Assembly: GCA_001567355.1 (NCBI GenBank)
Contig: JYNZ01000003.1
Coordinates: 179,991-243,990 of the forward strand
DNA: 64,000 bases
Origin: a candidate division WS6 bacterium OLB20
GTDB taxonomy: Bacteria > Patescibacteriota > Dojkabacteria > B142 > OLB20
Direction: 5' to 3'
Below the pieces are notes generated by a model that saw only the letters and a list, made by a program, of their open reading frames with translations, did not search any database and was not told where the DNA came from. Positions 12,171 through 48,204 of this stretch are shown in pieces (within the stretch, counting starts at the first letter, position 1; every line of letters starts with the position of its first letter). The position numbers and the translations under genes were made by a program.

Positions 12171-14003
12171 ATGGAGTTTGTATCCGGCACACAAAACGGA
12201 GGCGTTATTGAGGAGTTGATGCAGGTGACTGCAGAACGCGCCGAGCAGCACAAGCGCCTGAGCGGCTCACGCCGTGTCCATGGCGAACGCATGAATCAGA
12301 TACTCACGGGTGATCCCACCTTCCGGCTCAACAGGGCACATCTGCTTGCCGTTACTATCCATGACATGATTACCAAGGGCAGCCGAACCAGCGAACAACT
12401 GGACATGGACTTTATTGGAGACTACGTGGAGATTCTCAGCAGTCCCGGTGCAAGCTATACAGACCAGACAGAGGGTCTGTATGCACTTGGCCTGGCACTT
12501 GCAAAACACCGTCTGGAGCACCGTCTCGAGGAATGGCGTGCACGCTTCACACTCGACAGGTCAGATGCAGATCCGCTGTCTGCCGAGGAGGATGAATTTC
12601 TTAACAGTGTTATCGCCGGATCTCTGCAGACGCGGGGGATCCCGGACAGCCCCGAAATGGTCGGATCAGTTAGGGCACAGATATCCCAGGCGCTGTTTGA
12701 CGGAGGTGCAGCGGTTACACCCGAGATGCGAGCATTCCGGCTGCCGCTGGATCTGTTGCATCTGATTGAAACCATGCAGGAGACGGATCTTGATGCGATA
12801 CGACTCTACGGTGCCGAGCAGCTTGATAATCTCAACTTTCCAAATCCGGACAGACCGGCATCAACCTGGCGCGACTCAATGGAATCATTGTGGCTCGCAG
12901 CGATGCTCCAGATCATTACAGACGACCGGCTGGCAAGTGCGCTCCGCTCGGCATCATATCGCTACCTTAATGCTGACTCTCCGTTTATGCAGCGTGCGGT
13001 TATCATTCATAATGACGGCGAGGAATATGTTGCCAGAAACACGGCACGTATCGAGGACATCATGCAGGATGCGTACACGGAGACCTGTATACTGCACGGC
13101 GTGGTGCCCGGGATTGCAGAGCAGTCACACCGGGTAAAGAAGATCGGATCGATCCTGGAAAAACTCAGCAGGAACAGGGCTGATGCTCAGGAGGGAACAG
13201 TTGCCGATGGTATAGGTTATCTGGCAAAAGTACCCGACCTGCCGCCACATATCAACAAGCCGCTGTTTATGTTTGAAATGGGTGTCCAGCTTGCTAAAGA
13301 CCTGCAGAAAGCCAACCTGAATCTGCGCATCGGGCACACACGGGAACAGGATCATACAGTGGAAATCAATTACGGCTCACCCGAGGAGGTACACAGGGCC
13401 ATAGAGCAGATTCAGAAGCGGCACGACTTTCTGGAAATGGAGCAGGACGGTGACATCTATACGGTCAAAATCCACATCAGCAAGCGTAATTCCCCGGACG
13501 GTCAGACGGGACGTGCATTTCATGTTGTACTTGGACCAGCAAGAAAACCACGCTTTGCCGATAACGGACAGCCCGGTTATCAGGGAGTACATGTCAGTGC
13601 GGTCTACGAACGTCCGCACTCAGCCCATGACGGGGGAACATCCAGAAACGGTGCAGAGTTCAGAATTGTTGAGGAGACAGCAAAAGAGAACAATGATATC
13701 GGATATGCTGCAGACTTTCTCTACCGTGCCGAGAATGCGATGGGGCTTCTGGGCGAACTTGTCAGAGCAGAGGAATACACCCTGGCAAGCAATCTGGTTA
13801 CAGAACAGCTCGCCAAGATCAAACGGATCCATACCCGTTCAGCGTTGCTTCGCACGGGTACACATCTGTGGCTGCACCCGATTACACTGAATCAGCTGAT
13901 AGTACTGGGGAATCAATTACCCAAGCTGCAGACGCTTGTAGCGAGGCACTACAACGATCTGTATCCTGCAGATTATCAGGATATCCTTCGCGATCTACTA
14001 TAA
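12171..14003 (+). CDS. hypothetical 610-aa protein
   Basis: Long ORF with no TM and no motif I can assign. Sits between the two-component genes and the surface-protein operon. Confidence 0.45.
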   Translation: MEFVSGTQNGGVIEELMQVTAERAEQHKRLSGSRRVHGERMNQILTGDPTFRLNRAHLLAVTIHDMITKGSRTSEQLDMDFIGDYVEILSSPGASYTDQTEGLYALGLALAKHRLEHRLEEWRARFTLDRSDADPLSAEEDEFLNSVIAGSLQTRGIPDSPEMVGSVRAQISQALFDGGAAVTPEMRAFRLPLDLLHLIETMQETDLDAIRLYGAEQLDNLNFPNPDRPASTWRDSMESLWLAAMLQIITDDRLASALRSASYRYLNADSPFMQRAVIIHNDGEEYVARNTARIEDIMQDAYTETCILHGVVPGIAEQSHRVKKIGSILEKLSRNRADAQEGTVADGIGYLAKVPDLPPHINKPLFMFEMGVQLAKDLQKANLNLRIGHTREQDHTVEINYGSPEEVHRAIEQIQKRHDFLEMEQDGDIYTVKIHISKRNSPDGQTGRAFHVVLGPARKPRFADNGQPGYQGVHVSAVYERPHSAHDGGTSRNGAEFRIVEETAKENNDIGYAADFLYRAENAMGLLGELVRAEEYTLASNLVTEQLAKIKRIHTRSALLRTGTHLWLHPITLNQLIVLGNQLPKLQTLVARHYNDLYPADYQDILRDLL

Positions 14004-14106
14004 GTTGACACGCACCGATCCGCGATATAAGCCCATAGTTACAAACCGGATGCTTGTCGTTTATTGCAGGAGGCAGTATGCTAAATAGCATAGAACGTTT
14101 TGCTAA

Positions 14107-15348
14107 ATGAAGCATTCATCTCTACTGACTGTACCGGTTGTTATTCTGCTTGCGACATTTGCGACACTCCATGTGCACGCGCAAAACCTTGACTCCGGCA
14201 GTTATACAATACTGGACGCAACAGTTGATAACGGCGGGGGAACTGTAACCGGCACGAATTATGACGGGATCATCTCAATTGGCAATCCTACCGCCGATGC
14301 ACGACTGACCAGCGGTAGCTACGAACTGAAGTCGGGCTTTCCTAACGGTCTGCTCGCCAATGTTCCTCTATTAAACTGTTTTGAGACCGATACGACATCA
14401 GGCAACACCGACTGTACCTATTTTCCTAATGCAAACGGCGCCCAGGGAGAATGCGGTACACCGGGATGCTACGACCGTGCCAAACTAGAAATTGACGATG
14501 CCGGTAATCCTGTTGATGCGGTCTACCTCGTCAGGATTGAAGATCTGACTAATGCAGTAACGTATTATCTGCAGAGCGACCATACCCTCGATACCGGATA
14601 TGACCTTAATGACTTTATGACCCAGTGTGAACTTGAGGGTATAGATCCCGATGACACGACCTGTGATGATTCGGGAGACGGGGCGTGGAGCGAGTCACTT
14701 CAGTCTGCAAACATTCTCGGGCTGACACCAGACACAACATTTGAAGTCTCAGTTAGTGCCCTGAGCGGCGATTTTACCGGTACTCGTTTCAGCGAAGCTT
14801 TAACCGAAACGACCCTCTCACCGACTATCAGTTTTGACATTGATGTCGCGTCTACCGATACAGAATCATCAGCACCGTACGAACTGGAGATCGGCGAACT
14901 CATTTATGTTGCAGTAACAACCGCTGCGGACACTATCTGGCTGGATCTCGGCACAAACGCAGTCAATGGCGCGAACGTGTACGTCCGCGACACTGCCGGC
15001 CAGCTTGAATCAACTCTGACGGGAGAGACCGTTCCGTCAGAAAGCGAAGACCTGGCGTCAGACCCGAATAACAACGGTGGCTATGGCATCAAGATAGCCT
15101 CCACAACACAAAGCACTCTCGGTCCTCTGCAGACATCTGCGACCTATGATACGGCAGGAGCGCATGAGGTCGGCGCACTTAGCGGGACAAACGCGCTTCT
15201 GGTGTATACTGATACGACTGGCGGCAACCTTGGTCCGGTTTCGGGAGGCAGGGCTGGCATCAGTGTCAAGGCACGTTCTGCAGTCACAGATATTGCAGCC
15301 GGTGACCTGACAGATGATATTACCTTTATCTGTGTAGGAAACTTCTGA
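14107..15348 (+). CDS. secreted protein (signal peptide), Asp/Thr/Gly-rich
   Basis: MKHSSLLTVPVVILLATFATLHVHAQ is a signal peptide. 413 aa, acidic. First gene of the operon 14107..21839. Confidence 0.5.
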   Translation: MKHSSLLTVPVVILLATFATLHVHAQNLDSGSYTILDATVDNGGGTVTGTNYDGIISIGNPTADARLTSGSYELKSGFPNGLLANVPLLNCFETDTTSGNTDCTYFPNANGAQGECGTPGCYDRAKLEIDDAGNPVDAVYLVRIEDLTNAVTYYLQSDHTLDTGYDLNDFMTQCELEGIDPDDTTCDDSGDGAWSESLQSANILGLTPDTTFEVSVSALSGDFTGTRFSEALTETTLSPTISFDIDVASTDTESSAPYELEIGELIYVAVTTAADTIWLDLGTNAVNGANVYVRDTAGQLESTLTGETVPSESEDLASDPNNNGGYGIKIASTTQSTLGPLQTSATYDTAGAHEVGALSGTNALLVYTDTTGGNLGPVSGGRAGISVKARSAVTDIAAGDLTDDITFICVGNF

Positions 15349-15354
15349 TCTGAC

Positions 15355-16239
15355 ATGAGACGTATATTGCTTACAACAGCGGCGCTGTTTTTTTTAACTG
15401 CTTTTGCTGCAGCACCCGTGGCAGCTCAGGATACTAACGCATCTCTTTCTCTGTCACCTGCAATTCAGATTGTTGAAGAAGACGACCTCGGCAAAACCTT
15501 CACCATCAAACTGACTAATAACACCGGCAGCGATGTGACCATCACCCCGGAACTGACAGGCGTCGTAAGAGGAGAGGACGGCAAGACAGTACCTGCGGAA
15601 TCAGTACCCGAGGACAGTATCGACTTTGCAACCGAACCGTTTACTGTTCCTGCCGGCCAGACATATGACTTTCCTGTGCGTGTGCGACTTACACTCAGCG
15701 AAGTCGACACCTTTCCCGCTGTATCATTTACCGCGGCAAGTGGAGAAGAGCAGGTTGCCCTTAACACAAGTCTTGTCAGTATCTTTCTGGTGCAGAATGT
15801 AGCCGGGAGCCTGGGTATCGACTCGGATCTCGCAGTCAACCCCGGTGTAGTGGCCTTACAGCCCGATTTTTCGATCTCAGGATCAGTTCTCAATACCGGT
15901 GGAAAGTTTTACAATCCATCAGGCTCAATCAGGATCAGCAGGGATGGTCAGGTGCTCCATGAGGAGGAGATTACAACACAGATCCAGGGACTTCTGTTTC
16001 CGGAGGAGAGCAGAACATTTGCATCAATGTGGCGACTTGATCAAAACTTCCCTGAGAGTATCGGTACCTATGAGATCGAGGTGCGCATTACCCCCAACCC
16101 GTTTGAACAGACCCATGTGGCCCGTATTCAGGTGTTCTATCTGCCGCTGGAGGTTCTTGTTGTTGGAGTTCCCGTGTTTATTGTGATCCTGTCGCTGACA
16201 GGGTACATTTTTCTCCGTAAAAACAAGGCTGCAAGATAG
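15355..16239 (+). CDS. cell-surface protein with signal peptide and C-terminal membrane anchor
   Basis: N-terminal signal (AAPVAAQ). C-terminal VVGVPVFIVILSLTGYIFLRKNKAAR is a TM helix plus basic tail. This architecture resembles the DUF916/DUF3324 proteins of WxL-type surface loci. Confidence 0.5.
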   Translation: MRRILLTTAALFFLTAFAAAPVAAQDTNASLSLSPAIQIVEEDDLGKTFTIKLTNNTGSDVTITPELTGVVRGEDGKTVPAESVPEDSIDFATEPFTVPAGQTYDFPVRVRLTLSEVDTFPAVSFTAASGEEQVALNTSLVSIFLVQNVAGSLGIDSDLAVNPGVVALQPDFSISGSVLNTGGKFYNPSGSIRISRDGQVLHEEEITTQIQGLLFPEESRTFASMWRLDQNFPESIGTYEIEVRITPNPFEQTHVARIQVFYLPLEVLVVGVPVFIVILSLTGYIFLRKNKAAR

Positions 16240-16374
16240 TATACACCTTGACCGCACCCTCTGAATTGACTACACTTTTTTCAGCACTAGTACTGTTACA
16301 AAAGCCTTTTGTACAAACAAAATTCTGCCTACACGTATGCGACCCGTACATTCGCATGTACGGCAAGCATTATC

Positions 16375-17664
16375 ATGGGACTCATGTTCCTTACTTCTGT
16401 TGTATCCGCACAGGTTAACATTAACTCCAAGACCGAAGATTCCGATTCCCAGTTTTTTGAACTAAGTGATACTGACCAGCTGGTATCTAATACCGGTGGC
16501 GAATTCACACCCGGCGATACAACACCGACCCCCACGACTCCGCCGATTAATCAGCTGCCTGACACAGGTACCCAGGTTGATTCAAACATACCTGTTGTCA
16601 GGACGTTTCAGGAACAGATAGTGACGATAGAAGAACGTCTGATCAACAGCGAGACGACACCAGAATTCATCAAGAACATAGTTACAACGCTGGGGCTGCC
16701 GACAGCAACCGCTGTAGGGTTTTCCCTGGCTTTTCTGCCCGCAATTCTTACCCTGATACCACTGATACTGTCGCCGCAACTGCTGTTTCTGCTGCTCGGC
16801 GCTGTCTTTGGCGAGCAGAAGAATGTATGGGGTATCGTCATGGACTCCAAAACTAAAAAAGCTGTACCGTTTGCGGTTGTCAGACTGTTTGAGCAGAACA
16901 GCACTGCACAGATCACCCAGAAAGTCAGCGATCTTGAGGGGCGGTACGGTTTTGTACTGTCTGAGGGTAAATACAGAATCGAAGTCAGCCAGAGCGGCTA
17001 TACAACCTTTAAAAAGGACATTACGATTGCCAGCGATGAAGAACTGTTTACAGAGGACATTATGCTGGAAAAGGAGACATACGACAGCCCGCTCAAAGCG
17101 ATCACAAGAGCTTTCAGCGATATCAAGGCGTTGACGTTTAAATATAGTATCTATCTTGTCATCATAGGGTTTGTCTTCTCTGTACTGTCGCTCATTATTC
17201 AGTCAAGCTTCATCTCACAGCTGTTATTCCTATTCTACCTTGGGACACTTCTACTTTACGTATACATTCGCTTTCGCAAGAATAGAACCTGGGGAGTCAT
17301 TCTTGATTCTCAGACGGGACTCCGGATTTCCGGGGCCACTATCAGACTGTTTGACCCCCAGAACAGCCTTGCCGATACTCAGCTGTCTGATACACAGGGC
17401 AGGTTTGGCTTTCTTGCAGACCCCGGACAGTACTCATTATTAGTGTCTGCTTCGGGATATTCATTCCCGTCACAAAAGCAGAAAGACCTGCACAAGAATG
17501 ACGACAACAAGAAACTGCTCGATGTACACGTAAAGAAACCAAAATGGCTAAACCTTGCCATCCTGCTGGACCCGGGAGAGTCCGACAGCGATGCTGAACA
17601 ACCGGCAGCGTCTGTAAAGGCGCCGTCACAACCGTCTAATCTTTTATCACCGTTTGCAGGATGA
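16375..17664 (+). CDS. polytopic membrane protein with two carboxypeptidase-regulatory-like (CarbopepD_reg-like) domains
   Basis: Start at internal ATG 16375 (MGLMFLTSVVSAQ signal; track ORF begins 16309). Two repeats of GIVMDSKTKKAVPFAVVRLF...GRYGF / GVILDSQTGLRISGATIRLF...GRFGF are separated by hydrophobic segments. An LPDTG motif sits near the N-terminus. Confidence 0.5.
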   Translation: MGLMFLTSVVSAQVNINSKTEDSDSQFFELSDTDQLVSNTGGEFTPGDTTPTPTTPPINQLPDTGTQVDSNIPVVRTFQEQIVTIEERLINSETTPEFIKNIVTTLGLPTATAVGFSLAFLPAILTLIPLILSPQLLFLLLGAVFGEQKNVWGIVMDSKTKKAVPFAVVRLFEQNSTAQITQKVSDLEGRYGFVLSEGKYRIEVSQSGYTTFKKDITIASDEELFTEDIMLEKETYDSPLKAITRAFSDIKALTFKYSIYLVIIGFVFSVLSLIIQSSFISQLLFLFYLGTLLLYVYIRFRKNRTWGVILDSQTGLRISGATIRLFDPQNSLADTQLSDTQGRFGFLADPGQYSLLVSASGYSFPSQKQKDLHKNDDNKKLLDVHVKKPKWLNLAILLDPGESDSDAEQPAASVKAPSQPSNLLSPFAG

Positions 17665-20600
17665 AGCACACCATTCCGGGCATACTGAGAACTGCTGCAG
17701 CAATGCTGCTGTTCTTTGCAGTTGCGGCCGGCGGGGTTTATGCCCAGAACGCCCCCACGCGCGACACATACGAGTTTAAAAACAGGATCGTTGATGAGGA
17801 CGGTCAGGCCATACCTGACGGAACATACAACATGAAGTTTATCCTGTTTAATCAGGCTGGAGGGGGAACCGAGCTCTGGAGCGAGGCTAGGACGGTAGCC
17901 ACGCGCCGCGGCAACTTCAGTGTTGACCTGGGCTCTCTCAATCCGCTTCCCAAAAATGTGCTCGGCGAGACTGCTAATCTGTATCTTCATATCTGTCTCG
18001 ACTTCAACGGTGCCGACGGTGACGGCAGCGGTATCTGCGCAACACGGTATGAGGAAAACTTCCGTTCACGCAAGCGGATCACATCCGTGCCCTGGGCGCT
18101 GCGTTCATTTGCTCTGGGACCGGTATCGATCAACGAAGGAGGAGTCGGTTTTCCCATCAATGTTACAGGTGGCAACGGTACAATTACCTCATTCCGCTAC
18201 CTTGGAGGTGACAGACTGTCGATCGGCACAGACGGTACAACAACGTTTTCCAACGGAACTAACTCATTTAATATCAATCCCGGCTCACAGCGGATTAATC
18301 TGACCGGGGGGGCCGACATCTTTTTTGGTTCGTCTTCTCTTAAAAGCACTGGCGCTGGAGTTTCCGGTGCCACCATCATCGGTGTCAATCAGGCTAACTT
18401 TACAAATATCAGCGGTGCCAATGTACAGCAGGTTCTGGACTCTATCGATGATGCCATCGGTGGCGGAGGCGGTGGAGGAGGTCCGGAGACAGACCCTGTC
18501 TGGATTGCAGAAAAGGCTTCAGCCACATCTATAACCGGTGCATGGACATTTTCAGCTGCGCCGACATTCTCACAGGGGGTTGTCCTCGGCAATAACTCCG
18601 GAACAGCTGCAGGTACAATCAGATACACAGGCACGGACTTTGAAGGGTATAACGGCTCAAGCTGGCTTTCACTGACCGGCGGCGGAGGAGGAGGACCCGA
18701 AAGTGACCCTGTATGGAGCGCAGATCGTGATTCAGACCCGACAACGGTTGGTGCAGACTGGACATTCATTAGTCCGCTGACAACAGATGATCTGATTCCT
18801 GCATCAGATGATTCAGCAGTGATAGGTCAGGACGGCAGCCGCTACTCCGAGGGCCGGTTCAGCAACTTTGTCGGTATCGGTACCGATGCAAATTTTGCCG
18901 GTGACGCAGCTTTGCATATTGATTCCCGGGGGACAGCAGCTGTCTCCGGAGGCAACAACTATCCGGTCAGAATCAGTACAGAATATGACCCGACCGGTCT
19001 TGCCGGTACAGAAAACTTTAACAACATCTACATTACAAGTACGGTCAATGCAGGTGACGGGACGACGCTCAACCGCCAGCGTGGAGTGCGGACCGAACTG
19101 ACAAACAACAGCACAGGACCTCTGAACGGAATCTACAGCTCTTCCCATTCTGCCTGGAATAACGGTCCCATCAATGGCAGCCTGTACTCATACAGTGGCT
19201 TTGTTCAGAACAATGACAGTGTTACAGGATTTATCAATTCCGTCGGTACCACCGTCGAAAATAACGGCACCGCAGTAAATCTGCGATCCTTTGAATCGCT
19301 CATGAATAATAATGGCGACAACAGCTCTGCAATAGGATTACATATTATCGCTAACAACACGGGCAGCAATGCCGGAGGATTTTCCGGAGAGATCCTTACC
19401 ATCAATAATCAGGCCAGCGGCATAACCAACAACCTCTACGGGGAGGGAATAACAGTTACAAATAACGGAGAGGTAACCGGCCGGGGTCATGTCGGATGGT
19501 ACGGTTTTCACAACCATGGGACATTTTCGGATGTAGATCACGTCTTCTACGAATTCAATGCAGTTAACCATGCGACAGGATCATTGCCGCAATGGTACGG
19601 CTGGAGTAACATCCAGCGTAACGACGGCGAGGCTCGCGGCGGCTGGCTCAACATGCGCAACCAGATCTGGGTCGGTTCAACCGGAACGCACAGCGGTGGC
19701 ATTGATGTTCTTGGAAACATGGTACTGAACGAGGGATCCATCACTGGAGATGTGTTTACAGTGAACAACACAACGGCTTTTGGTTCAACCTCAGGCAACG
19801 TTTACGGCACAAGGAATACAGTAGGCTCCAACCACCTGCTCGAGAGTTTTCCGCATGCAGCGACAAATGTGTACGGAACGGTCAATGAGGTAATCGCTTC
19901 TGGTGGACAGGAGATCACAGCCAGTAACACCCTTACCGGACTGCGTAACGAAATCTACGGTCCGGTCAGCGCCGGGACGACCATGTACGGTATCTACAAC
20001 AATATCATCCCTGACGGCACAGCGTCCGAGTTTGCAGGTATTTACAACTTCATCGATCCATCCGCTGCCGGTGATCCGTCAGACTACTACGGAATGTATT
20101 CCAGCAATGGTATTTCTGAAGTATGGCTTAACTACCAGGGTACACCGGGCACCAATTACTCGATCTTTGGAGGACCTGCATACTTTGAGACAGTTGACAT
20201 AAACGGTGAAGAGAACAGACTGGCAAATACACCAGGATCTGCTGCTACAGCTGATCTTTACTACGGAAATGATCTGCTTTGCGATGTCAGCGAACCCAAC
20301 TGCGGTTCAGGCGGTGGCGGTGGTGGAAGCCTCTGGACAGATGACGGTTTCGGCAATATCTACTACGACACCGGAGGCGTTGGAATCGGCGCTCAGTCCC
20401 CGTACGGTGAAGGACTGTACATCGAAGGTGATGGTAATATCGGTCTCTCAGTATACAACGGCAGCGTCGGACTTGAAGGCCCTGTCGGCATCGGATCTAC
20501 AACATACAACGGCTTTAACAACGAAATGCTCTATATCGAGCGCCCGAACTCCAGCGCCCACATCCGCTTCCAGGATGGTGGCTGGGGTGACCCGTTCTCA

Positions 20601-21839
20601 CCTGATGAGGGTTCATTGTGGTGGAACGGCTCCGAGCTGAACTTCTACGATGGATCTACAACAACTGACCTGCTCGCTGGCGGTGGTGGTGGAGGAGGCT
20701 TCTGGACCGAAAGCTGCTGCGGTGATATCTACTACGAAAGCGGCTATGTCTCGATCGGAACCAGTTCAACCAATGAACTCTTCACACTGAGTGGCGGATT
20801 CTACCAGGGAGGCGACTCGGTTGCATTTCTTGATGAGGACATATATCTCCTAGACTACGACGGATTCTACTTCGGTCAGAACAGCCAGACGGACAGTTAC
20901 TTCTATGGAAACATGTATCTCAACAACACCTATTTTGAGTGGGACTTCGGTGATGTCTACTTTGATTCAGGCAATGAGCTTGTTTTCGGTAACAATGGTA
21001 CACCGAGCTATTTCTACGGCACAGTAGAGCACTACGGTCAGACGTACTTCTATGACGGTATTAACCTGTCAACGGGTGATATGTATGTGAGCAGCGGTAA
21101 CCTCTCTGTCGAAAACGGATATCTCTGTGTGGACGACGGTACGTACTCCTGCCCGGCATCAACTGCAGGAACAATCTACGGACAGTACGCATATTCTGAA
21201 TTTGATATCGCAGAGAATATCCATGCCAGACAGGGTGTCGAAGCAGGCGACATCGTTATGCCTGACAGCGATTCCCCCGAAAGTGTCCGCAAGAGCGACC
21301 GTGCATATGCACATAATGTACTTGGCGTTATCAGCACAGACCCGGGAGTACGCGGAGGCGTCAATCTGGAAGAGAAATCAGGCTACAGCGTCCAGCCGAT
21401 ATCCCTGGCCGGACGCGTTCCTGTAAAGGTCAACAATCAGAACGGCAGCATCGCCATTGGTGACCCGATCACCACTTCAGACACTCCGGGTGTGGGTATG
21501 AAGGCGACAAACAGCGGACGCATCATCGGATTTGCACTTGAGGCTTTTGATGGCAGCGAGGGACAGATCATTGTGTTCCTTAACGCAACACATTATGCGG
21601 CCGAAAATGACAACAATGGCACACGGGCTGTTGCAGGAAAAGCGATACTGAATGCCGGAGAGATCGCAGTAACAATCGAAGATACGAACGTTAGAGCTGA
21701 CAGCGTTATCATACTGACACCGACCAGCTCGACACAGGGACAGTTCCCCTACGTACTGTCACAGACAGATGGCAGCTTCACCGTCAGAATTGACAGCGCT
21801 GTAGAGCGCGACATCTCCATGAACTACATGGTTAACTGA
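17661..21839 (+). CDS. giant (1392 aa) secreted fibrous surface protein with poly-Gly tracts
   Basis: ATGA overlap with the upstream gene. Signal peptide present. Four Gly6-8 tracts, each followed by PETDPVW / PESDPVW / SLWTDDGFGNIYYD / FWTESCCGDIYYE. Two copies of (I/L)(R/W)(Y/W)-x-G-x-x-(F/L)-x-(G/F)Y(N/D)GS(S/T) (IRYTGTDFEGYNGSSW, LWWNGSELNFYDGSTT). Strong terminator follows. Confidence 0.6.
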   Translation: MKHTIPGILRTAAAMLLFFAVAAGGVYAQNAPTRDTYEFKNRIVDEDGQAIPDGTYNMKFILFNQAGGGTELWSEARTVATRRGNFSVDLGSLNPLPKNVLGETANLYLHICLDFNGADGDGSGICATRYEENFRSRKRITSVPWALRSFALGPVSINEGGVGFPINVTGGNGTITSFRYLGGDRLSIGTDGTTTFSNGTNSFNINPGSQRINLTGGADIFFGSSSLKSTGAGVSGATIIGVNQANFTNISGANVQQVLDSIDDAIGGGGGGGGPETDPVWIAEKASATSITGAWTFSAAPTFSQGVVLGNNSGTAAGTIRYTGTDFEGYNGSSWLSLTGGGGGGPESDPVWSADRDSDPTTVGADWTFISPLTTDDLIPASDDSAVIGQDGSRYSEGRFSNFVGIGTDANFAGDAALHIDSRGTAAVSGGNNYPVRISTEYDPTGLAGTENFNNIYITSTVNAGDGTTLNRQRGVRTELTNNSTGPLNGIYSSSHSAWNNGPINGSLYSYSGFVQNNDSVTGFINSVGTTVENNGTAVNLRSFESLMNNNGDNSSAIGLHIIANNTGSNAGGFSGEILTINNQASGITNNLYGEGITVTNNGEVTGRGHVGWYGFHNHGTFSDVDHVFYEFNAVNHATGSLPQWYGWSNIQRNDGEARGGWLNMRNQIWVGSTGTHSGGIDVLGNMVLNEGSITGDVFTVNNTTAFGSTSGNVYGTRNTVGSNHLLESFPHAATNVYGTVNEVIASGGQEITASNTLTGLRNEIYGPVSAGTTMYGIYNNIIPDGTASEFAGIYNFIDPSAAGDPSDYYGMYSSNGISEVWLNYQGTPGTNYSIFGGPAYFETVDINGEENRLANTPGSAATADLYYGNDLLCDVSEPNCGSGGGGGGSLWTDDGFGNIYYDTGGVGIGAQSPYGEGLYIEGDGNIGLSVYNGSVGLEGPVGIGSTTYNGFNNEMLYIERPNSSAHIRFQDGGWGDPFSPDEGSLWWNGSELNFYDGSTTTDLLAGGGGGGGFWTESCCGDIYYESGYVSIGTSSTNELFTLSGGFYQGGDSVAFLDEDIYLLDYDGFYFGQNSQTDSYFYGNMYLNNTYFEWDFGDVYFDSGNELVFGNNGTPSYFYGTVEHYGQTYFYDGINLSTGDMYVSSGNLSVENGYLCVDDGTYSCPASTAGTIYGQYAYSEFDIAENIHARQGVEAGDIVMPDSDSPESVRKSDRAYAHNVLGVISTDPGVRGGVNLEEKSGYSVQPISLAGRVPVKVNNQNGSIAIGDPITTSDTPGVGMKATNSGRIIGFALEAFDGSEGQIIVFLNATHYAAENDNNGTRAVAGKAILNAGEIAVTIEDTNVRADSVIILTPTSSTQGQFPYVLSQTDGSFTVRIDSAVERDISMNYMVN

Positions 21840-22120: not shown

Positions 22121-24114
22121 ATGGATAGCTCACGAAGATTTATAACCGAACCAGAGCTGTACGAGCTTTTCCCTGATGCGCGCATAGGCATCCTGTATCT
22201 GCACGGACTGAAACAGCGTGAAGGAGCTGAAAAACCCGCTGCTAACCTGCGTGAGAATGTTTCCGAGCGCCTTTCAGCACGTTCGATACCATACAACAGG
22301 ACCGAAAACCATGCTGCATGGTCCGCAGTATTTTCCGCGCTTGGTATAGGCGACAAGCAAACACTGGCTTCACATCTCGCCCTGTTAAAACGGTTCCAGA
22401 GCAGCAGTCAATTGCCTCAAATTCATCCTCTCGTCGACGCATACAACCACATATCTGCTCTGCGGGAGCTTCCCGTTGGAGGACATGATGTGTCAGGGAT
22501 AACAGAGGTTACTGTCGGAAAAACAACCGGCGAGGAGACATTCAGAACGATGAACAGTGACACCGAAGAAACTGTTGAGACAGGAGAATGGGCCTATCTG
22601 GATCGCACCGGTAAACGCGTTTTAACCCGAAACCTTGTCTGGCGTCAGAGTGAGTACTCAAAGATTTCTGGAACACCCGAGGCTGTGATGCTTCCTCTTG
22701 ACGATTTTACCGGTTCCTTCTCCGACAGTGAACTTGCTGGTATTGCTGAAGAGCTGGTCAGTGTTCTGGCTGGCATCTACGACTTCACCTGGGACTTTGG
22801 TGTAGTGAGTCGCTACAACAACGTAAAGACTCTCAATCCAGGCAATTCAAGCAATTCTATCAAAACAAGCATTCTTCTGCTAACGAGACCCGAAACCGAT
22901 ACAACCCCCGAATCCATTGACCGGTTCTTTGATCATAAGATTGATCAGGTATACCCGTCTGCAGATGCACTGCGCAAAGCACTTGCTTCGGGCAGAAGGC
23001 TAAGCTTTTATATCGGCGCTGATGCGACAGGGCCGCGGCTTCACCTTGGACACCTGATCCCGGTGCTGAAACTGAGACAACTCCAGCAGATGGGTCACCG
23101 GCTGATATTTCTCATTGGTGACTTTACCGCAAGGATAGGTGACCCCACCGATAAGACAGCTGCCCGTGTGATGCTGAGTCAGGATGACGTAGAACGTAAT
23201 GCAGAGCGGTTCAGAAACCAGATCGCCCGCTACATCGATTTTGATGATGATCAGAATCCTGCGGAGCTTGTTTTCAACTCCGACTGGAACAAGGCTCTTA
23301 CCATGCTGATGTAATCAGCCTCGGATCACGCTTCACTGTTCAGCAGATGCTTGAACGTGATATGTTCCAGGTGCGCATGCAGGAGAATAAACCAATTTAT
23401 CTGCACGAGTTCTTTTACCCACTGCTTCAGGGATACGACTCGGTGCACATGGAGGTGAGCGGAGAATTTGGCGGCAGAGACCAGACATTTAACATGCTTG
23501 CCGGAAGGGATCTAGAAAAAAGCATGAAGGGTATTGATAAATTCGTGATCACAACACATTTCCTTCTTGCCGCCGACGGTAACAATAAAATGAGCAAGAG
23601 CATAGGTAACTGTATATTTATCGAAGACACGCCAGAGGACAAATACGGAAAGGTTATGTCCATACCGGACCAACTCATCAGACATTATTATGAGTTCGCA
23701 ACGCTCCTGACCAGAGAAGAAATTGACACAGTATTAGCTCAACAGACAGATCCGCTGGAACAGAAAAAACAGCTCGCATTTGAGGTGACCAGACTCAACG
23801 ATGGCGAAGAAGCAGCGCTGAATGCACAAACTCACTTTGAAAAGACGGTTCAGCAGAAAGAGATGCCCGAAGACGTGAGGACAGTTGCCCGAAGAGAAAT
23901 ACGCGAGATTGCAGCGACAGATAGCATTCAAATCAAATCTCTGCTAACAATTCTTGAATTAGCCGAAAGCAATTCTGATGCAAAGCGACTTGTCGTAGCT
24001 GGCGGCGTGGAGGTTGATGGCGAACGCCTCACCGACCCAAACCATGAGATCAGTCTGTCTGCTGTATCGACAATTCGTGCGGGCAAGAGAAACTGGGTTC
24101 AGTTTACAGATTAA
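22121..24114 (+). CDS. tyrS: tyrosyl-tRNA synthetase with an N-terminal B3/4-like domain; reading frame broken by an apparent 1-nt deletion near 23306
   Basis: Residues ~1-250 give HPLVDAYNHISALRELPVGGHD...GEETF...GEWAYLD, a B3/4 (PheT-type tRNA-binding/editing) pattern. Then YIGADATGPRLHLGHL (HIGH) follows. After the frame shift, the second ORF 23347..24114 carries KMSKSIGN and an S4-like C-terminus. The frame -1 translation upstream of 23347 (DVISLGSRFTVQQML) continues the TyrRS alignment, so ctg-atg was probably ctgG-atg. Confidence 0.7.
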
Positions 24115-38081: not shown

Positions 38082-38652
38082 TTCTCAGACACTGATAATC
38101 ACAGCAGCAGCACTCATCCTGTTTATCTCCGGTGGAGTGTTTGCAGTTATGGGGCTATCATCCTCAGCATCAGGAAACGATCCTGCTGTGACACTGCTGG
38201 ACAGCATCGGCAGTGAAAATCAGTATCGGGCCTGTTCAGGAAGCGCTGCCGAGGTATGCTTCAGCTGGCAGTATCTGACAGGCAGCTTCGCAGACAACAC
38301 GCTCACCGTGGGCGATGCAAGTCTCACGCTGTCCGGCAGGTACAACCGTGAGACAGATATTGAAGAGATTTCGCGCGATCTTAATGTGATCTATTACAGC
38401 AGGCCCGAGGGTGATCAGCTGACCGGATACCTGCAGACCGATAAGGATACGTTTGTGACTGGATCGACCGGATCCTGTGTTGAGGGTGCTTTCTTCTATT
38501 TTGACAGATTTCCGGCAGGGCTGGACCTGCTGAAGCTGCCTGTAGACGATGGTCACAGAGGCTTTCTGGAGCTGTATCCGTGTGACAGTAACCCGGCACA
38601 GGAACAGTTTTTCAGCTATACTAGACTTGAGCGCCAGCTGATTGATTTATGA
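38071..38652 (+). CDS. small membrane-anchored family protein 4
   Basis: ATG at 38071 overlaps the upstream stop (ATGAACCGTAA). TM IITAAALILFISGGVFAVMG. The track ORF starts earlier at 38008. Confidence 0.45.
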   Translation: MNRNSQTLIITAAALILFISGGVFAVMGLSSSASGNDPAVTLLDSIGSENQYRACSGSAAEVCFSWQYLTGSFADNTLTVGDASLTLSGRYNRETDIEEISRDLNVIYYSRPEGDQLTGYLQTDKDTFVTGSTGSCVEGAFFYFDRFPAGLDLLKLPVDDGHRGFLELYPCDSNPAQEQFFSYTRLERQLIDL

Positions 38653-41600
38653 AGACAAACCGCGCAAATCTGCTGTTCCTGATCTTCGGCATACTAGTTG
38701 CTGTCACGTTTGTAACGGCCAAATCAAATAATGCAGACGCACTCTCAATGGGTGTCGGCTGCTGGACACGCTGGAAGCAGCAGTACAGCATGGGATGGCA
38801 CTGCGACGGTTCCGCATCTGTTCGCAACAGGCCCTATGATGTATGGGTCTGGCACTGTCAGCAGGCAAATCTGAGCTGGTGTGATGCCAACAACGGCGGA
38901 GTGCTTATCACGAAACAGTCGTTCGGTGGGCCTGTGCCGGTTGAATTCACTTCTTCCGCAAGTGGTTACGGAAACTGCGGAAGCGTTCAGATGGACATCG
39001 GTCTTCCCGGTGCTTCTGACCACGGTGTAGCTGGAGGCGCAATTTACTCCAACGGCACAAGCTGCTCAAGTCCGCCACAACCGACAACACCTCCAAGTCA
39101 GTGCGGTAACTGGAACGATACACAGTTCTGGACCGGCTGCTGGGGCGAACCATACCCCGGCTGCGGGGGTCTTGGTGGATGGATCAGCGGTAACGACGTG
39201 ACCAGCCGCAACCCGAGCAGACCGTTTCCGCTTGATATCAACTGCTTTACCAACCTGGGATCTGCATGGACATCTGCGACTGTATCACTTGTTTACAATG
39301 GAAGCACAATCGGAAATTACAACACCTGGGCACCGCGAAACATCAATATCAGCTCACCGGGAACATACGAGGCGTTGTGCCGGGACCGTGTAGCACCAAA
39401 CTGTTACGACATTGACCGCTTCACCGTGCAGTGCGTCAATACCTGCGGCAGTGCCAGAGACCCCAATGCACCCACACTCAGCTCGCCGTCGAACGGTGCA
39501 ACACTGACAAACAGGAATGTGACGCTGACATGGTCTCACAGCGGATTTGGACGCTGCGGCGGCAACAGCTGCTCGGGCGGTTGTAACAGTACAAATCCGA
39601 CGAGCCTGAGTGTAACCCTTAACGGTCCTGGTGGAGGTACGGTCGTACTGCCCGGCGGCTCAACATCATATACATTTACAAATCTGACAGGCAAAAACTA
39701 TACCTGGTATGTTACGGCCCGCAACGGCTGCAATCTGACTGAACAGTCTGTTGTCAGATCGTTTGTCATCAACTCACCACCGACATTTAACGGATCAGTC
39801 ACAAGCAACCAGATATGTACAGCGGGTGGAGTAACCACAGGCGGATCAGCGCAATGGAGCGGCATCCACGCCAACTCAGTCATCGGAAACGGGACCAGCG
39901 GCATCAACAATCCTCTGACTGTGCGTGTGACCTACGATGATCCGGATGGAAGAGCTGATCTGAACCGTCTGGAGGTCTGGCTTGGCGATAATAACAGCCC
40001 GGCGCCGGGTGCAACAGCTGTCTCGACTTCGGCAAGCGCGTCCCTTGCATATGGCGGAGGATCAAATCATACACTCTATGCAGCAGGAGGAAGCAGTCGA
40101 TCAATAGACAGTAACAACTCCGGAAACCAGGCAGTACTCACATCAGGATCAAATACACAATCAATTGTTGCTGTTTCAGGTTCAACAACCGGCACAGCAT
40201 ATGCGCTGCCCAGGATTGTCTCAACCACAGCAACTTCAGTTGTTGTTGACTGGCAGCTTGGTCTGTTTAACTCTTCAGCGTTTGACGGTGACGTCCGGAT
40301 CTATGCACGCGCAGTTGACCAGTCCGGTGTAGCAGCAGGGTGGAGTATTATTGACACCTGGAGGGTCGACCTTCGCTATCCCAACCCCGTTGCCAACCTT
40401 ACTCTGCGTAACCAGACAGCATTTGATGTTACGTACTCTGCTAATGACGCCACCAGTCCGGTACTTTCATATTCCAAGACCTGTACCTCGAGTCTTGCAG
40501 CCAGCGAGTCGATCACACTCAACCAGGTCGCGCCTGGCGCATCACCAAACAGCCGGACGTTTACCGGCAACCAGAATCAGAATCCGTGTTTTGATAATCT
40601 TGCAGGCACGACCTACTACACTGTCAATAACACACCCCGGGATGGAACGCTGCGGTTTAACTGGACAGCCAAGGACTCCGCCTGTAACACCGCACCCTCG
40701 ACCTCAGCCGATCTTCGCCTGAAACCGCCATGGATGATGACTGTCGACGGTGATACATTTACCAGTCAGGGTATCAGGCAGACATCAATCAATGACATTA
40801 ACACCATTAACAACCCGAACCTGCCGGACCAGCACAACCGTGTACCGTATCTATCCGACTACAACTTCATGCTTGAGACGGGCTCGCTGCCTGCCAAGGA
40901 TACCGAGCGAGACCTTGCCGTTGACGATTACGATGACCTCAACGGAAAGCCAAGGGCCGAGTTCGGTTTTCCGGACTGGTTCAGTTTTGTCGATGCCCGG
41001 ATTCTCCGCAATCTGCCGGCAAATCAGATCGCAACAGTTAACGGTCCGCAGACATTCAGCGATGTAACATCACAGCAGGTGGCACAGGCACTCGGCATGA
41101 CGGGTGTAGAGATCAACGGATTTGCGGGCACAGGTGATGCGAAAGTAAATGTCATCAAAGTGATCGGCAATCTGACCTTAAACAGGGTCAGCTGCAACAC
41201 AAAGACTATCTTTCTGGTAACGGGCAACCTAACAATCAACCCCGAATCGCGAATATCAGACGACCCGCGCAACGATGTAATCAACGGGTGCATGTATGTT
41301 GTGGCAGGCAGGACAACGGTACTGCCCGGACAGAATGCCGATGTTCTTGGAGCTGCAACCGAGCGGGCGAGGGTGCTTGGCACCAGCGCTCAGGTTCTGG
41401 CTGCATCATTTGAGACTGCAGCCACAACTGCTGCCAGAAACAACAACGGGCAGTGTGTCGTCGGTATCCTGACAAACCATGCGGATGTCTATAATTCAAA
41501 TTATGATACCGGTTATGGCGTCGGCCGGGCAGAGATTCAGGCCCTGGTGCCGCAAGGCTATGTTGACCAGGTGAAACTGCTAACACAGATCTCACCGGCA

Positions 41601-46820: not shown

Positions 46821-46876
46821 AGTGTGGACAGTAACTAATTATTCAAATAGTAGGTTGAACGGATACTCCTGTCAAA

Positions 46877-48144: not shown

Positions 48145-48181
48145 TGTAATGTATCAAATCCGTTATCAGATTAAACAAATA

Positions 48182-48204
48182 CTGCCGGGTAATCAACCCG
48201 GCAG
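48182..48204 (-). terminator. intrinsic terminator between the tandem pilin genes
   Basis: CTGCCGGG-taatcaa-CCCGGCAG forms an 8-bp stem. On the minus strand it is followed by TATTTGTTT. Confidence 0.5.

What the first reader, a model, noticed from the sequence alone, without database searches (positions are those of the whole stretch)
18458..20700. Recurring module in the giant protein: poly-Gly tract followed by PE(T/S)DPVW or aromatic motif, plus two copies of a (I/L)(R/W)(Y/W)-x-G-x-x-(F/L)-x-(G/F)Y(N/D)GS(S/T) motif
Gly6-8 runs occur four times in the protein (nt ~18458, 18671, 20308, 20675). The runs are GGGGGGGGPETDPVW, GGGGGGPESDPVW, SGGGGGGSLWTDDGFGNIYYD and AGGGGGGGFWTESCCGDIYYE. IRYTGTDFEGYNGSSWLSL and LWWNGSELNFYDGSTT resemble a short repeat I associate with phage tail-fibre and fibrous surface proteins, but that is from memory and unverified. 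At the DNA level these are GGN-rich simple-sequence tracts that could be slippage-prone and alter fibre length.
Basis: partly seen in the sequence, partly recalled or inferred. Interest (0 to 1): 0.5.

Follow-up and report, generated by a model that had tools for sequence, protein, structure and literature searches.

The report
Glycine hinges in a tail-fibre-like adhesin
The four glycine runs are most likely flexible joints between the rigid building blocks of a long, phage-tail-fibre-like surface fibre made by a tiny WS6 (candidate phyla radiation) bacterium; the design is widespread and already known from phages and from the predator Bdellovibrio.

Summary
ORF 17661-21839 (1392 aa, signal peptide) has Gly8, Gly6, Gly6 and Gly7 runs, against 0.014 expected by chance. 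Each run sits at a module boundary. Three of them follow a beta-hairpin motif (IRYxGxDFEGYxGxxWxSLT, or the LWWN or degenerate variant). Each is followed by a module start, either PE(T/S)DPVW or xWTxxGxIYYxxGxVxIGT.

This junction is common. A profile of aa 860-1062 matches 18,575 protein-cluster representatives, and 43 of the top 147 end in the S74 tail-fibre chaperone. In most relatives the linker is mixed G/S/A. The best solved matches are Bdellovibrio MAT fibres (Bd2133, E 8e-7). The same hairpin followed by GGGG occurs in phage CBA120 TSP4, where the four glycines are a documented flexible linker.

The slippage idea is weak. Codons are mixed, with at most four identical in a row, and any change would be in frame. 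Length differs among orthologues mainly by whole-module duplication.

Verdict: an ordinary feature, and a new member of a known kind of trimeric fibre adhesin.

The parts
17661..21839 (+). Gene for the 1392-aa secreted fibre protein (TR69_WS6001000563 of candidate division WS6 bacterium OLB20)
   Evidence: ORF listing and translation. 100% identical database entry. It is the only ORF in the window that carries the fibre modules.
17661..17747 (+). Signal peptide (aa 1-29: MKHTIPGILRTAAAMLLFFAVAAGGVYAQ)
   Evidence: Read directly from the translation: a hydrophobic core followed by VYA-Q. No signal-peptide predictor was run.
17748..18140 (+). Conserved N-terminal domain (aa 30-160), the presumed cell-proximal anchor; equivalent to the MAT N-terminal domain
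   Evidence: Conserved in all five orthologues. The profile finds 246 proteins, many from Patescibacteria. It also matches the N-terminus of Bd2133-like ORFs from two Bdellovibrio genomes (24.4 and 23.7 bits; E about 6e-7 to 1e-6 for a set of 447 sequences).
18414..18458 (+). Short helix GANVQQVLDSIDDAI (aa 252-266) immediately before Gly tract 1
   Evidence: AlphaFold model places a helix at model residues 13-27. The sequence is conserved in the orthologues.
18459..18482 (+). Gly tract 1 (G8, aa 267-274): linker from the N-terminal region to module A
   Evidence: pLDDT below 50. Orthologues have GTGGGIQN, GTGGGGGG or GGGGGG at this site.
18483..18677 (+). Module A (aa 275-339): PETDPVW ... 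WTFS ... ending in beta-hairpin 1, IRYTGTDFEGYNGSSWLSLT (aa 320-339, nt 18618-18677)
   Evidence: Hairpin region has pLDDT 82-84 with strands VVL/IRY/FEGY/WLS. Phage-derived profile scores 23.2 bits. Copy number is 0, 1 or 2 in orthologues. In OLB21 the module is a 210-nt tandem duplication.
18678..18695 (+). Gly tract 2 (G6, aa 340-345): linker after hairpin 1
   Evidence: Replaced by SGSIA, TAPVS or SGTGA in homologues.
18696..18860 (+). Module A' (aa 346-400): PESDPVW ... WTFI ... DLIPASDDSAVIGQDGSRYSEGRF. This is a truncated A copy that leads into the shaft.
   Evidence: DNA direct repeat 18464-18522 vs 18677-18735, 75% identity, spacing 213 nt.
18918..20237 (+). Asn/Gly-rich repetitive shaft (aa 420-859), presumed beta-solenoid or beta-helix
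   Evidence: Sequence periodicity seen in the translation and the orthologue alignment. The fold is inferred; it was not modelled.
20250..20309 (+). Degenerate hairpin 3, ADLYYGNDLLCDVSEPNCGS (aa 864-883), with two Cys
   Evidence: Aligns column for column with DVRYTGSDFEGFFGGSWHSFTS of P0003 and SIRFNGTDFEGYNGSTWVPF of P0005.
20310..20327 (+). Gly tract 3 (G6, aa 884-889)
   Evidence: Orthologues have G6, G5, G8 or SGGGSS at this site.
20328..20678 (+). Module B (aa 890-1006): SLWTDDGFGNIYYDTGGVGIGAQSP... (W-start plus capping-loop motif) ending in hairpin 2, LWWNGSELNFYDGSTTTDLLA (aa 986-1006, nt 20616-20678)
   Evidence: The aa 860-1062 profile (A4), which contains module B, finds 18,575 cluster representatives. 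Separately, the 64-position junction profile (A5) has Bdellovibrio MAT fibres as its top PDB hits, matched through the capping loop.
20679..20699 (+). Gly tract 4 (G7, aa 1007-1013)
   Evidence: Orthologues have SGGGGG, GGGGGG or ASGSS at this site.
20700..20795 (+). Start of module B' (aa 1014-1045): FWTESCCGDIYYESGYVSIGTSSTNELFTLSG
   Evidence: DNA direct repeat 20310-20374 vs 20679-20743, 77% identity, spacing 369 nt.
21204..21620 (+). C-terminal phi29 gp12 D4-like autochaperone domain (aa 1182 to about 1320), starting at DIAEN. The predicted self-cleavage site is F1181|D1182.
21627..21818 (+). Terminal beta-sandwich (aa 1323-1386) resembling the C-terminal domain of K1-lyase-type tailspikes
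12171..17664 (+). Four upstream ORFs (610, 413, 294 and 451 aa; the last has two CarboxypepD_reg domains and overlaps the fibre start codon by 4 nt). Together with the fibre gene they form a conserved cluster.
   Evidence: Pfam. The same gene order occurs in OLB21 and in a third Dojkabacteria genome. A functional link is inferred from synteny only.

Best explanation
ORF 17661-21839 most likely encodes a secreted, homotrimeric, phage-tail-fibre-like surface fibre. It is of the MAT (mosaic adhesive trimer) kind, made by a WS6/Dojkabacteria (candidate phyla radiation) bacterium.

The fibre is a chain of rigid modules. Many modules end in a conserved beta-hairpin (G.IR[YF].G.DFEGY.G..W.SLT, or its LW[YW]N...FYDG variant). 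In phage CBA120 TSP4 this motif lies in the three-stranded sheet that builds a trimeric beta-prism. The next module begins with a conserved Trp segment, either PE(T/S)DPVW or .W.D.G..IYY..G.VGIGT. The VGIGT..P...L part is the 'capping loop' of trimeric beta-helices.

The four poly-Gly runs are the flexible, length-tolerant hinges between these modules. They let successive three-fold-symmetric folds reset their register, and they let the fibre bend.

The C-terminal domain resembles the phi29 gp12 autochaperone. It would nucleate trimerisation and probably cleave itself off at F1181|D1182.

What is shown:
- the motifs and where they sit;
- their conservation and spread;
- the fold of the C-terminal domain (as a prediction);
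- the chromosomal context.

What is inferred:
- the trimeric state;
- hinge flexibility in this particular protein;
- self-cleavage;
- a role as an adhesin.
For: Position of the tracts:
- All four tracts lie at module boundaries, and three lie directly after a hairpin.
- At the same sites, orthologues carry linkers of other lengths and compositions: SGSIA, TAPVS, GTGGGIQN, SGGGSS, ASGSS, and G5 to G8.

Spread of the junction:
- The junction hairpin, then a 4-11 residue G/S/A linker, then W..G..IYY..GNVGIGT recurs in many unrelated giant proteins.
- Poly-G occurs at this junction in other family members too: 12 of 27 G5+ runs are followed within 6 residues by W.
- The aa 860-1062 profile matches 18,575 cluster representatives, 2,866 of them at E<=1e-10, with up to 42 matched stretches per protein.
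- Four of 10 sampled hits carry Pfam Peptidase_S74, and 43 of 147 match a local S74 profile at their C-terminus.

Links to solved structures:
- The junction profile's top four PDB hits are Bdellovibrio MAT fibres: Bd2133 8OND (E 8.1e-7), Bd2439, Bd3182 and Bd1334. PMC10769870 describes the capping-loop motif and the trimeric beta-helix.
- CBA120 TSP4 has VRYNPDSDEFEGYYENGGWLSL followed by GGGG. PMC8825819 states that residues 43-75 form the three-stranded sheet of a beta-prism II and that Gly76-79 is a flexible linker with raised B-factors.

Links to phage proteins:
- A profile built only from phage segments hits hairpin 1 at 23.2 bits, against a shuffle maximum of 7.1.
- hhalign of WS6-family against phage hairpins gives 97.6% probability.

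Models:
- In the AlphaFold model the hairpin strands are confident (pLDDT 82-84) and the Gly tracts are about 50 or lower.

Domain architecture and context:
- The N-terminal domain is shared with Bdellovibrio Bd2133-like proteins.
- The WS6-type C-terminal domain and S74 occupy the same terminal position on the same chassis in other phyla.
- The neighbours are housekeeping genes, and synteny holds in three genomes.
Against: - No curated model recognises the modules (Pfam, PHROGs, NCBIfam).
- Direct tblastn of the modules against phage genomes found nothing.
- The TSP4 match is not significant as a database hit: E 0.63 by profile and Foldseek E 4.5.
- The phage hairpin set was gathered with a motif-seeded query that was partly written from memory. 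The 97.6% hhalign figure is therefore not an unbiased search statistic.
- Hairpin 2 is marginal against the phage profile (5.7 bits; the 99.9th percentile of shuffles is 6.5).
- The monomer AlphaFold model of the A region is poor overall (pLDDT 59).
- The N-domain link to Bdellovibrio is modest (24 bits).
- Trimerisation, flexibility, cleavage and surface display are all untested.
Confidence: 0.8

Rival explanations
1. First reader's idea. The GGN tracts are slippage-prone simple-sequence repeats. They would act as contingency loci that vary tract length, and so fibre length or expression, within a population.
For: Tract lengths differ among orthologues at the same sites: site 1 has 8, 3, 6 or 6 Gly; site 3 has 6, 6, 5 or 8; site 4 has 7, 5, 6 or 0. 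Some orthologues have five identical codons in a row, GGA x5 or GGT x5. Tandem Repeats Finder detects a weak 12-nt x2 array in tract 1.
Against: In this genome the tracts are interrupted mixtures of GGT, GGC and GGA. The longest same-codon runs are 2, 4, 2 and 3, and no mononucleotide run exceeds 2. Triplet slippage is in frame, so it cannot switch expression, and it changes length by about one residue in a 1392-aa fibre. At the same sites other lineages use non-repetitive G/S/A linkers, so the conserved property is a small flexible linker, not a repeat. The larger length differences come from whole-module copy number.
Confidence: 0.08
2. The Gly tract together with its conserved flanking motif mainly serves as a recombination joint. 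These 59-65-nt similar segments at module starts would promote unequal crossing-over, which duplicates, deletes or swaps whole cassettes and so tunes fibre length and tips. This is compatible with the hinge role, as an added function.
For: In-frame direct repeats lie exactly at the module starts: 75% identity over 59 nt at 213-nt spacing, and 77% over 65 nt at 369-nt spacing. Module A is present 0, 1 or 2 times in orthologues. In OLB21 it is an exact 210-nt head-to-tail duplication at 82% identity. The MAT paper proposes 'tip swapping' between fibres (PMC10769870).
Against: Repeat identity of 75-82% is low for efficient homologous recombination today. The similarity is equally explained by protein-level constraint on the junction motifs. 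No recent event (near-identical copies) was seen in this genome.
Confidence: 0.25
3. The gene is a real phage or prophage tail-fibre gene, that is, a virion component rather than a cellular protein.
For: The hairpin motif is shared with cyanophage and Kuttervirus virion proteins. The C-terminal domains match phi29 gp12 and K1-lyase tailspikes.
Against: The protein has an N-terminal signal peptide. The flanking genes are histidine kinase, TyrRS, RecG, BacA and other housekeeping genes. The same gene order is kept in three Dojkabacteria genomes. No PHROGs hit. No other phage-like gene was seen nearby.
Confidence: 0.03

Closest known systems
Bdellovibrio bacteriovorus MAT (mosaic adhesive trimer) fibres: Bd2133, Bd2439, Bd3182, Bd1334 (Caulton et al. 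2024, PMC10769870; PDB 8OND, 8OL4, 8OJN, 8OML)
   Same: - A signal peptide followed by a conserved N-terminal domain.
- A long shaft carrying repeated VGIG(T/N)..P...L capping-loop motifs.
- Small-residue linkers before the next domain; Bd2133 has GGIKFPDGSVQTTAA-SGAAT-W.
- A variable or chaperone-type C-terminus.
- These fibres are the top four PDB hits of the junction profile, and the N-domain profile hits Bd2133-like ORFs.
   Different: - The organism is a candidate phyla radiation bacterium, not a predator.
- The linkers are homopolymeric Gly.
- The shaft contains an Asn/Gly-rich repeat region and lineage-specific PETDPVW modules, which are almost absent from the top 147 hits.
- The C-terminus is phi29 gp12 D4-like. 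That terminus is not among the ones solved for MATs (S74, beta-sandwich, TNF-like, C-type lectin).
Phage CBA120 tailspike TSP4 anchor domain and its tetraglycine linker (PDB 7RFV, 7RFO, 7REJ; PMC8825819)
   Same: The motif VRYNPDSDEFEGYYENGGWLSL is followed directly by GGGG and then a new domain, the same order as IRYTGTDFEGYNGSSWLSLT-GGGGGG here. The paper describes a beta-prism II built from three-stranded sheets and a flexible Gly76-79 linker.
   Different: The similarity covers only about 28 residues and is not significant as a database hit (E 0.63). TSP4 is a virion baseplate-anchored tailspike with gp10-like XD domains, which are absent here.
phi29 gp12 (pre-neck appendage or tailspike) C-terminal D4 autochaperone (PDB 3GQH, 3SUC; MEROPS G2)
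   Different: There is no Pfam Peptidase_G2 hit and only a weak sequence E-value (0.5). An extra K1-lyase_C-like beta-sandwich follows the domain. Self-cleavage and ATP-dependent release are unknown for this protein.
S74 (intramolecular chaperone) terminated tail fibres and endosialidases (K1F, T5 pb1) and their bacterial homologues
   Same: They share the shaft grammar (W..G..IYY..GNVGIGT..P...L.V.G). Among the top 147 profile hits, 43 end in S74, and 4 of 10 sampled hits do so by Pfam.
   Different: This protein has no S74 domain. A different chaperone-like domain occupies that position.
T4-like cyanophage virion and tail proteins with N-terminal GTTAQRP..G.(I/L)RYN....FEGY.G..W modules (S-RIM12, P-SSM4, ACG-2014j, S-CAM4)
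   Same: The hairpin motif is followed by a G/S-rich stretch. The profile-profile match is 97.6%. A bacterial intermediate, P0157, links both sides.
   Different: The WS6 hairpin lacks the GTTAQRP lead-in and has a turn that is two residues shorter. The phage proteins are short, have globular C-terminal domains and lack a signal peptide.

Membership tests
MAT-type trimeric fibre adhesins (Caulton et al. 2024) | A signal peptide followed by a conserved beta-rich N-terminal domain of about 130 aa | tested here: met
   The signal peptide was read. The N-domain profile (A8) matches aa 52-187 of a Bd2133-like ORF in Bdellovibrio sp. HCB-110 (24.4 bits, E 5.8e-7 for 447 sequences) and a second Bdellovibrio MAG (23.7 bits). 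The score is modest, and B. bacteriovorus HD100 itself was not retrieved.
MAT-type trimeric fibre adhesins (Caulton et al. 2024) | A shaft with repeated capping-loop motifs (V-G-I-G/N-T-x-x-P-x-x-x-L) of a trimeric beta-helix | tested here: met
   GVGIGAQSP..L, PVGIGSTT and YVSIGTSSTNELF occur in aa 905-1040. The junction profile's top PDB hits are Bd2133 (E 8.1e-7), Bd2439, Bd3182 and Bd1334, all matched through this motif.
MAT-type trimeric fibre adhesins (Caulton et al. 2024) | An intertwined homotrimer displayed on the cell surface | not testable with these tools
   Only monomer AlphaFold was available. The trimeric state is inferred from homology to the trimerisation chaperone gp12 D4.
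Peptidase_S74 (intramolecular chaperone) tail fibres | A C-terminal S74 domain with the SDxxxK motif | tested here: not met
   No Pfam hit at E<=1. No hit with a local S74 profile anywhere in the window.
phi29 gp12 D4-type autochaperone (MEROPS G2) | A tandem beta-tulip fold at the C-terminus of a spike or fibre | tested here: met
phi29 gp12 D4-type autochaperone (MEROPS G2) | A conserved acidic motif at the cleavage boundary (the released gp12 fragment starts DFAE) | tested here: met
   DxAE is conserved across the 15-sequence family alignment. It aligns to residues 1-4 of the 3GQH chain. The sequence E-value is only 0.5.
phi29 gp12 D4-type autochaperone (MEROPS G2) | Recognition by the curated family model (Pfam Peptidase_G2), and demonstrated self-cleavage | tested here: not met
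   No Pfam hit other than sub-threshold K1-lyase_C. Self-cleavage cannot be tested computationally.
Phage virion tail fibre (a gene of a phage or prophage) | Location among phage structural genes, or a match to phage protein families | tested here: not met
   The neighbours are housekeeping genes. Synteny is conserved in three genomes. No PHROGs hit. No tblastn hit in 50,697 phage records.
Simple-sequence contingency locus | A long uninterrupted repeat tract whose unit number changes switch or alter the product | tested here: not met
   The longest identical-codon runs are 2, 4, 2 and 3. Tandem Repeats Finder reports only a 12-nt x2 array. Any change is in frame. Within-population variation was not testable.
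Collagen-like triple helix | G-X-Y triplet periodicity | tested here: not met
   The tracts are homopolymeric Gly of 6-8 residues with no G-X-Y repeats.

The most novel reading that the evidence does not exclude
Candidate phyla radiation bacteria such as WS6/Dojkabacteria are thought to live attached to other microbes. On this reading they use phage-derived, self-chaperoning trimeric fibres of the MAT kind as their host-recognition adhesins.

The fibre has a gp12-type autochaperone that is cleaved off to expose the tip. It is built and anchored together with the four co-transcribed secreted proteins upstream. Its reach is tuned over evolutionary time by duplication or loss of whole modules at the Gly-linker joints.

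This would extend the predator's prey-recognition fibre system to episymbionts, and it would name a concrete candidate for host attachment besides type IV pili.
Probability: 0.3. Interest if true: 0.55.

Novelty: new member of a known kind. Interest (0 to 1): 0.3.

Why it matters
It turns an odd-looking low-complexity feature into a readable domain map. The giant WS6 protein can now be annotated module by module as a tail-fibre-like trimeric surface fibre with a predicted self-cleaving chaperone.

The hairpin-linker-Trp junction is a simple sequence signature for segmenting thousands of unannotated giant fibre proteins that Pfam and PHROGs do not recognise.

For the biology of candidate phyla radiation bacteria it gives one concrete, testable candidate for cell-to-cell attachment. 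The gene lies in a conserved five-gene cluster, and the same window also carries a type IV pilus locus.

It does not reveal a new mechanism.

Tried and rejected
- Pfam, PHROGs and NCBIfam scans of the whole protein found nothing above threshold. phmmer against PDB sequences found nothing.
- tblastn of the A region and the B region against 50,697 phage records gave no match at E<=0.01.
- A word-indexed search with the 44-aa hairpin profile collected only 13 candidates and was uninformative, so one capped search was wasted.
- The monomer AlphaFold model of aa 240-425 was poor (pLDDT 59). Foldseek with it gave nothing significant; TSP4 was rank 2 at E 4.5.
- The N-domain search returned mostly short fragments and no Bdellovibrio names. 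The Bdellovibrio link was instead obtained by fetching Bd2133-like loci.
- Collagen-like repeats were considered and rejected because there is no G-X-Y periodicity.
- RTX-type or other Gly-rich repeats were considered and rejected because the tracts are homopolymeric and lie only at junctions.
- A prophage origin was rejected because of the conserved housekeeping synteny.
- One search used a query whose first 14 residues came from my memory of the motif. Its hits served only to collect phage examples, not as statistics.

Full report
**What is there**

The finding lies inside one ORF, window 17661-21839 (+), 1392 aa. The protein starts with a typical signal peptide and is rich in Gly, Ser, Asn and Thr.

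| Gly run | aa | nt |
|---|---|---|
| G8 | 267-274 | 18459-18482 |
| G6 | 340-345 | 18678-18695 |
| G6 | 884-889 | 20310-20327 |
| G7 | 1007-1013 | 20679-20699 |

With 15.2% Gly, 0.014 runs of six or more are expected. In 20,000 composition-preserving shuffles the maximum was two.

The protein is 100% identical to hypothetical protein TR69_WS6001000563 of candidate division WS6 bacterium OLB20. Only a handful of full-length relatives exist, all in WS6/Dojkabacteria.

**Module grammar**

Aligning the five orthologues and listing every motif copy shows what the recurring unit is. A module ends in a beta-hairpin motif, a short small-residue linker follows, and the next module opens with a conserved Trp segment.

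The order in OLB20 is:

1. N-terminal domain and a short helix (aa 252-266)
2. G8
3. Module A (PETDPVW...WTFS...IRYTGTDFEGYNGSSWLSLT)
4. G6
5. Truncated A' (PESDPVW...)
6. Asn/Gly-rich repetitive shaft
7. ADLYYGNDLLCDVSEPNCGS
8. G6
9. Module B (SLWTDDGFGNIYYDTGGVGIG...LWWNGSELNFYDGSTTTDLLA)
10. G7
11. B' (FWTESCCGDIYYESGYVSIGT...)
12. C-terminal domains

The segment ADLYYGNDLLC... aligns column for column with genuine hairpins (DVRYTGSDFEGFFGGSWHSFTS and SIRFNGTDFEGYNGSTWVPF) in two homologues. It is therefore a third, degenerate hairpin. Tracts 2, 3 and 4 all follow a hairpin.

At the DNA level the paired module starts appear as in-frame diverged direct repeats:

- 18464-18522 vs 18677-18735, 75% identity, 213 nt apart.
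- 20310-20374 vs 20679-20743, 77% identity, 369 nt apart.

**The linkers vary; the junction does not**

At the same alignment positions the orthologues carry GTGGGIQN, GTGGGGGG, GGGGGG, SGSIA, TAPVS, SGTGA, SGGGSS, ASGSS, and G5 or G8.

Module A is present 0, 1 or 2 times in orthologues. In OLB21 it is an exact 210-nt tandem duplication at 82% nucleotide identity.

**How widespread it is**

An exhaustive HMMER search used a profile of aa 860-1062: degenerate hairpin, G tract 3, module B, G tract 4 and the start of B', from four orthologues.

- It found 18,575 cluster representatives at E<=0.001 and 2,866 at E<=1e-10.
- Many are giant proteins with up to 42 matched stretches.
- Among the best 147, 145 carry VGIGT..P...L-type motifs.
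- 106 carry the W...IYY..GNVGIGT start.

Many show the full junction, for example:

- IRYNTTLGKFEAYEGTGW-TNMISVGSGGGSSQ-WTTSGSDIHYNSGNVGVGT
- GKLYYDGSELRFYDGSSWGDI-GGGG-LWTQSGSDIYYNSGGVGVG

The linker is 4-11 residues long and rich in G, S and A. Homopolymeric Gly is the minority form, but it recurs at this very junction: 12 of 27 G5+ runs are followed within six residues by Trp.

Pfam finds Peptidase_S74, the tail-fibre or endosialidase intramolecular chaperone, at the C-terminus of 4 of 10 sampled hits. A local S74 profile finds it in 43 of 147.

**Links to solved structures**

A 30-sequence junction profile searched against all PDB sequences returns the four Bdellovibrio MAT fibres as its top four hits:

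- Bd2133 (8OND), E 8.1e-7
- Bd2439 (8OL4), E 0.0037
- Bd3182 (8OJN), E 0.013
- Bd1334 (8OML), E 0.018

All match through the GNVGIGT..P...L.V.G segment. Caulton et al. (PMC10769870) describe this segment as the 'capping loop' on the edges of an intertwined trimeric beta-helix. They note that it is shared with MyRF and with S74 phage fibres (K1F, T5). They also describe a conserved N-terminal domain of about 130 aa after the signal peptide, variable C-terminal tips, and flexible fibres.

For the hairpin, the best motif-level match is phage CBA120 TSP4 (7RFV): VRYNPDSDEFEGYYENGGWLSL followed by GGGG (E 0.63, not significant on its own). Translation of the homologous gene in phage EP75 places this at residues 54-79.

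The structure paper (PMC8825819) says three things:

- Residues 7-42 form a triple-stranded beta-helix.
- After that, each chain forms a three-stranded antiparallel sheet, and these sheets assemble into a trimeric beta-prism II.
- Gly76-Gly79 is a flexible tetraglycine linker with raised temperature factors, joining this domain to the next.

This is a direct structural precedent for 'hairpin, then poly-Gly, then new domain'.

**Is the phage link real?**

Curated phage models did not detect it, and neither did direct tblastn.

I collected nine hairpin segments from phage virion, tail or tailspike genes (cyanophages S-RIM12, P-SSM4 and ACG-2014j; Kuttervirus EP75; Klebsiella phage KpS110; Dunaliella viridis virus SI2).

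- A profile built only from these scores WS6 hairpin 1 at 23.2 bits, in register. The maximum of 2000 shuffles was 7.1, and the best other segment in the whole six-frame window scored 4.6.
- Hairpin 2 scores only 5.7 bits here, but 8.4 and 10.4 in two orthologues (2.2 in a third, P0003).
- Profile-profile comparison of WS6-family hairpins with the phage set gives 97.6% probability over 32 columns.
- A bacterial intermediate (P0157) matches the WS6 profile strongly, and its hairpin half matches 42 phage genomes at E down to 7e-6.

One caveat applies. The phage set was gathered with a motif-seeded query that was partly written from memory. These figures measure similarity; they are not an unbiased database search.

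**The two ends of the protein**

The N-terminal domain (aa 30-160) is widespread, especially in Patescibacteria.

I fetched loci related to a 51-residue stretch of Bd2133. The WS6 N-domain profile matches the N-terminus of the Bd2133-like ORFs of Bdellovibrio sp. HCB-110 and of a Bdellovibrio MAG (24.4 and 23.7 bits; E about 6e-7 to 1e-6 for 447 sequences).

The 3GQH chain begins DFAEYF, and this aligns with the family-invariant DxAE (D1182-I-A-E here). gp12 D4 is described as an autochaperone required for trimerisation (summarised in bioRxiv 10.1101/216911). The cleavage site S691|D692 is from my memory of Xiang et al. 2009, a paper not held here.

In other phyla the WS6-type C-terminal domain and S74 occupy the same terminal position on the same chassis. 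N-domain plus C-domain occurs in Fibrobacteraceae and Verrucomicrobia ORFs. N-domain plus S74 occurs in Cloacimonadota and Phycisphaerae ORFs.

**Context**

The gene is chromosomal.

- Upstream are a histidine kinase and four ORFs with Ig-like or CarboxypepD_reg domains. The last of these overlaps the fibre start codon.
- Downstream are TyrRS, RecG and BacA.
- The same order is kept in OLB21 and in a third Dojkabacteria genome.
- No other ORF in the window carries the fibre modules.

**Mechanism**

The best-supported reading is a secreted homotrimeric fibre built from rigid three-fold modules (beta-prism hairpins, and beta-helix with capping loops). The modules are joined by short flexible linkers. 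A C-terminal gp12-like autochaperone sets the trimer register and probably removes itself.

The poly-Gly runs are those linkers. The AlphaFold monomer model agrees locally: hairpin strands have pLDDT 82-84 and the Gly tracts about 50 or lower.

Trimer state, flexibility, cleavage and surface display are inferences.

**Slippage**

The tracts are mixtures of GGT, GGC and GGA. They have at most 2, 4, 2 and 3 identical codons in a row, and no mononucleotide run longer than 2. Tandem Repeats Finder sees only one weak 12-nt x2 array.

Changes would be in frame and would add about one residue. Over evolutionary time the tract lengths do drift (5-8 Gly at one site), so occasional slippage is plausible. 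Nothing suggests a contingency locus. Fibre length changes mainly by whole-module gain or loss.

Read-level data were not available.

**Verdict**

The finding is real and is now explained. It is the ordinary junction grammar of a very large family of phage-tail-fibre-like trimeric fibres, a family that curated libraries annotate poorly. This protein is a new member from a candidate phyla radiation bacterium. Its gp12-type rather than S74-type terminal chaperone is a modest variation. No paper in the searched library connects MAT fibres with Patescibacteria. That gives the case some interest as a candidate host-attachment fibre.

Noticed in passing
window 22121-23314 and 23347-24114 (+): Tyrosyl-tRNA synthetase is split into two ORFs in different reading frames. 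The first carries an N-terminal B3_4 domain plus the start of tRNA-synt_1b. The second carries the rest plus the S4 domain. In OLB21 and a third Dojkabacteria genome the same gene is a single ORF of 663-665 aa (B3_4 fused to TyrRS). In OLB20 this therefore looks like a frameshift, either an assembly error or a pseudogene. The B3_4-TyrRS fusion itself is unusual.
   Followed up: partly
window 12171-17664 (+); L089:2662-8000; L090:4399-8004: A conserved gene cluster sits upstream of the fibre gene. It has four ORFs (about 570-610, 412, 295 and 440 aa). The last has two CarboxypepD_reg/transthyretin-like domains, and its stop overlaps the fibre start codon. A histidine kinase and response regulator precede the cluster in the orthologous loci. 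These ORFs may be assembly or anchoring partners of the fibre.
   Followed up: partly
window 44039-53650 (-): A type IV pilus-like locus: a 560-aa protein with an N-terminal methylation (pilin) motif and two T2SSE-family ATPases (599 and 609 aa, the latter with an MshEN domain). Type IV pili are the known attachment organelles of cultivated candidate phyla radiation episymbionts.
   Followed up: no
window 38649-42998 (+): A second giant ORF (1449 aa) has no Pfam hit and none of the fibre modules (N-domain, junction, C-domain or S74 profiles all negative). Its function is unknown.
   Followed up: partly
window 21120-21155 (aa 1154-1165) and 20250-20309 (aa 864-883): There are conserved Cys pairs: YLCVDDGxxSCP just before the autochaperone-like domain, and LLCDVSxPNC in the degenerate hairpin. 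A further CC pair lies in FWTESCCGDIYY and is specific to OLB20. These could form disulfides that stabilise an extracellular fibre.
   Followed up: no
P0055 aa 4186-4735; L088:1488-8735: In some giant relatives the gp12-D4-like domain is not terminal. More shaft and an S74 domain follow it, so two different chaperone-type domains can occur in one fibre protein.
   Followed up: no
L068, L076, L086 (loci): Capping-loop and hairpin segments related to Bd2133 were also retrieved from contigs labelled Bathyarchaeia, Nanoarchaeia and 'uncultured archaeon'. The fibre chassis may therefore extend to archaea. Binning errors were not excluded.
   Followed up: no
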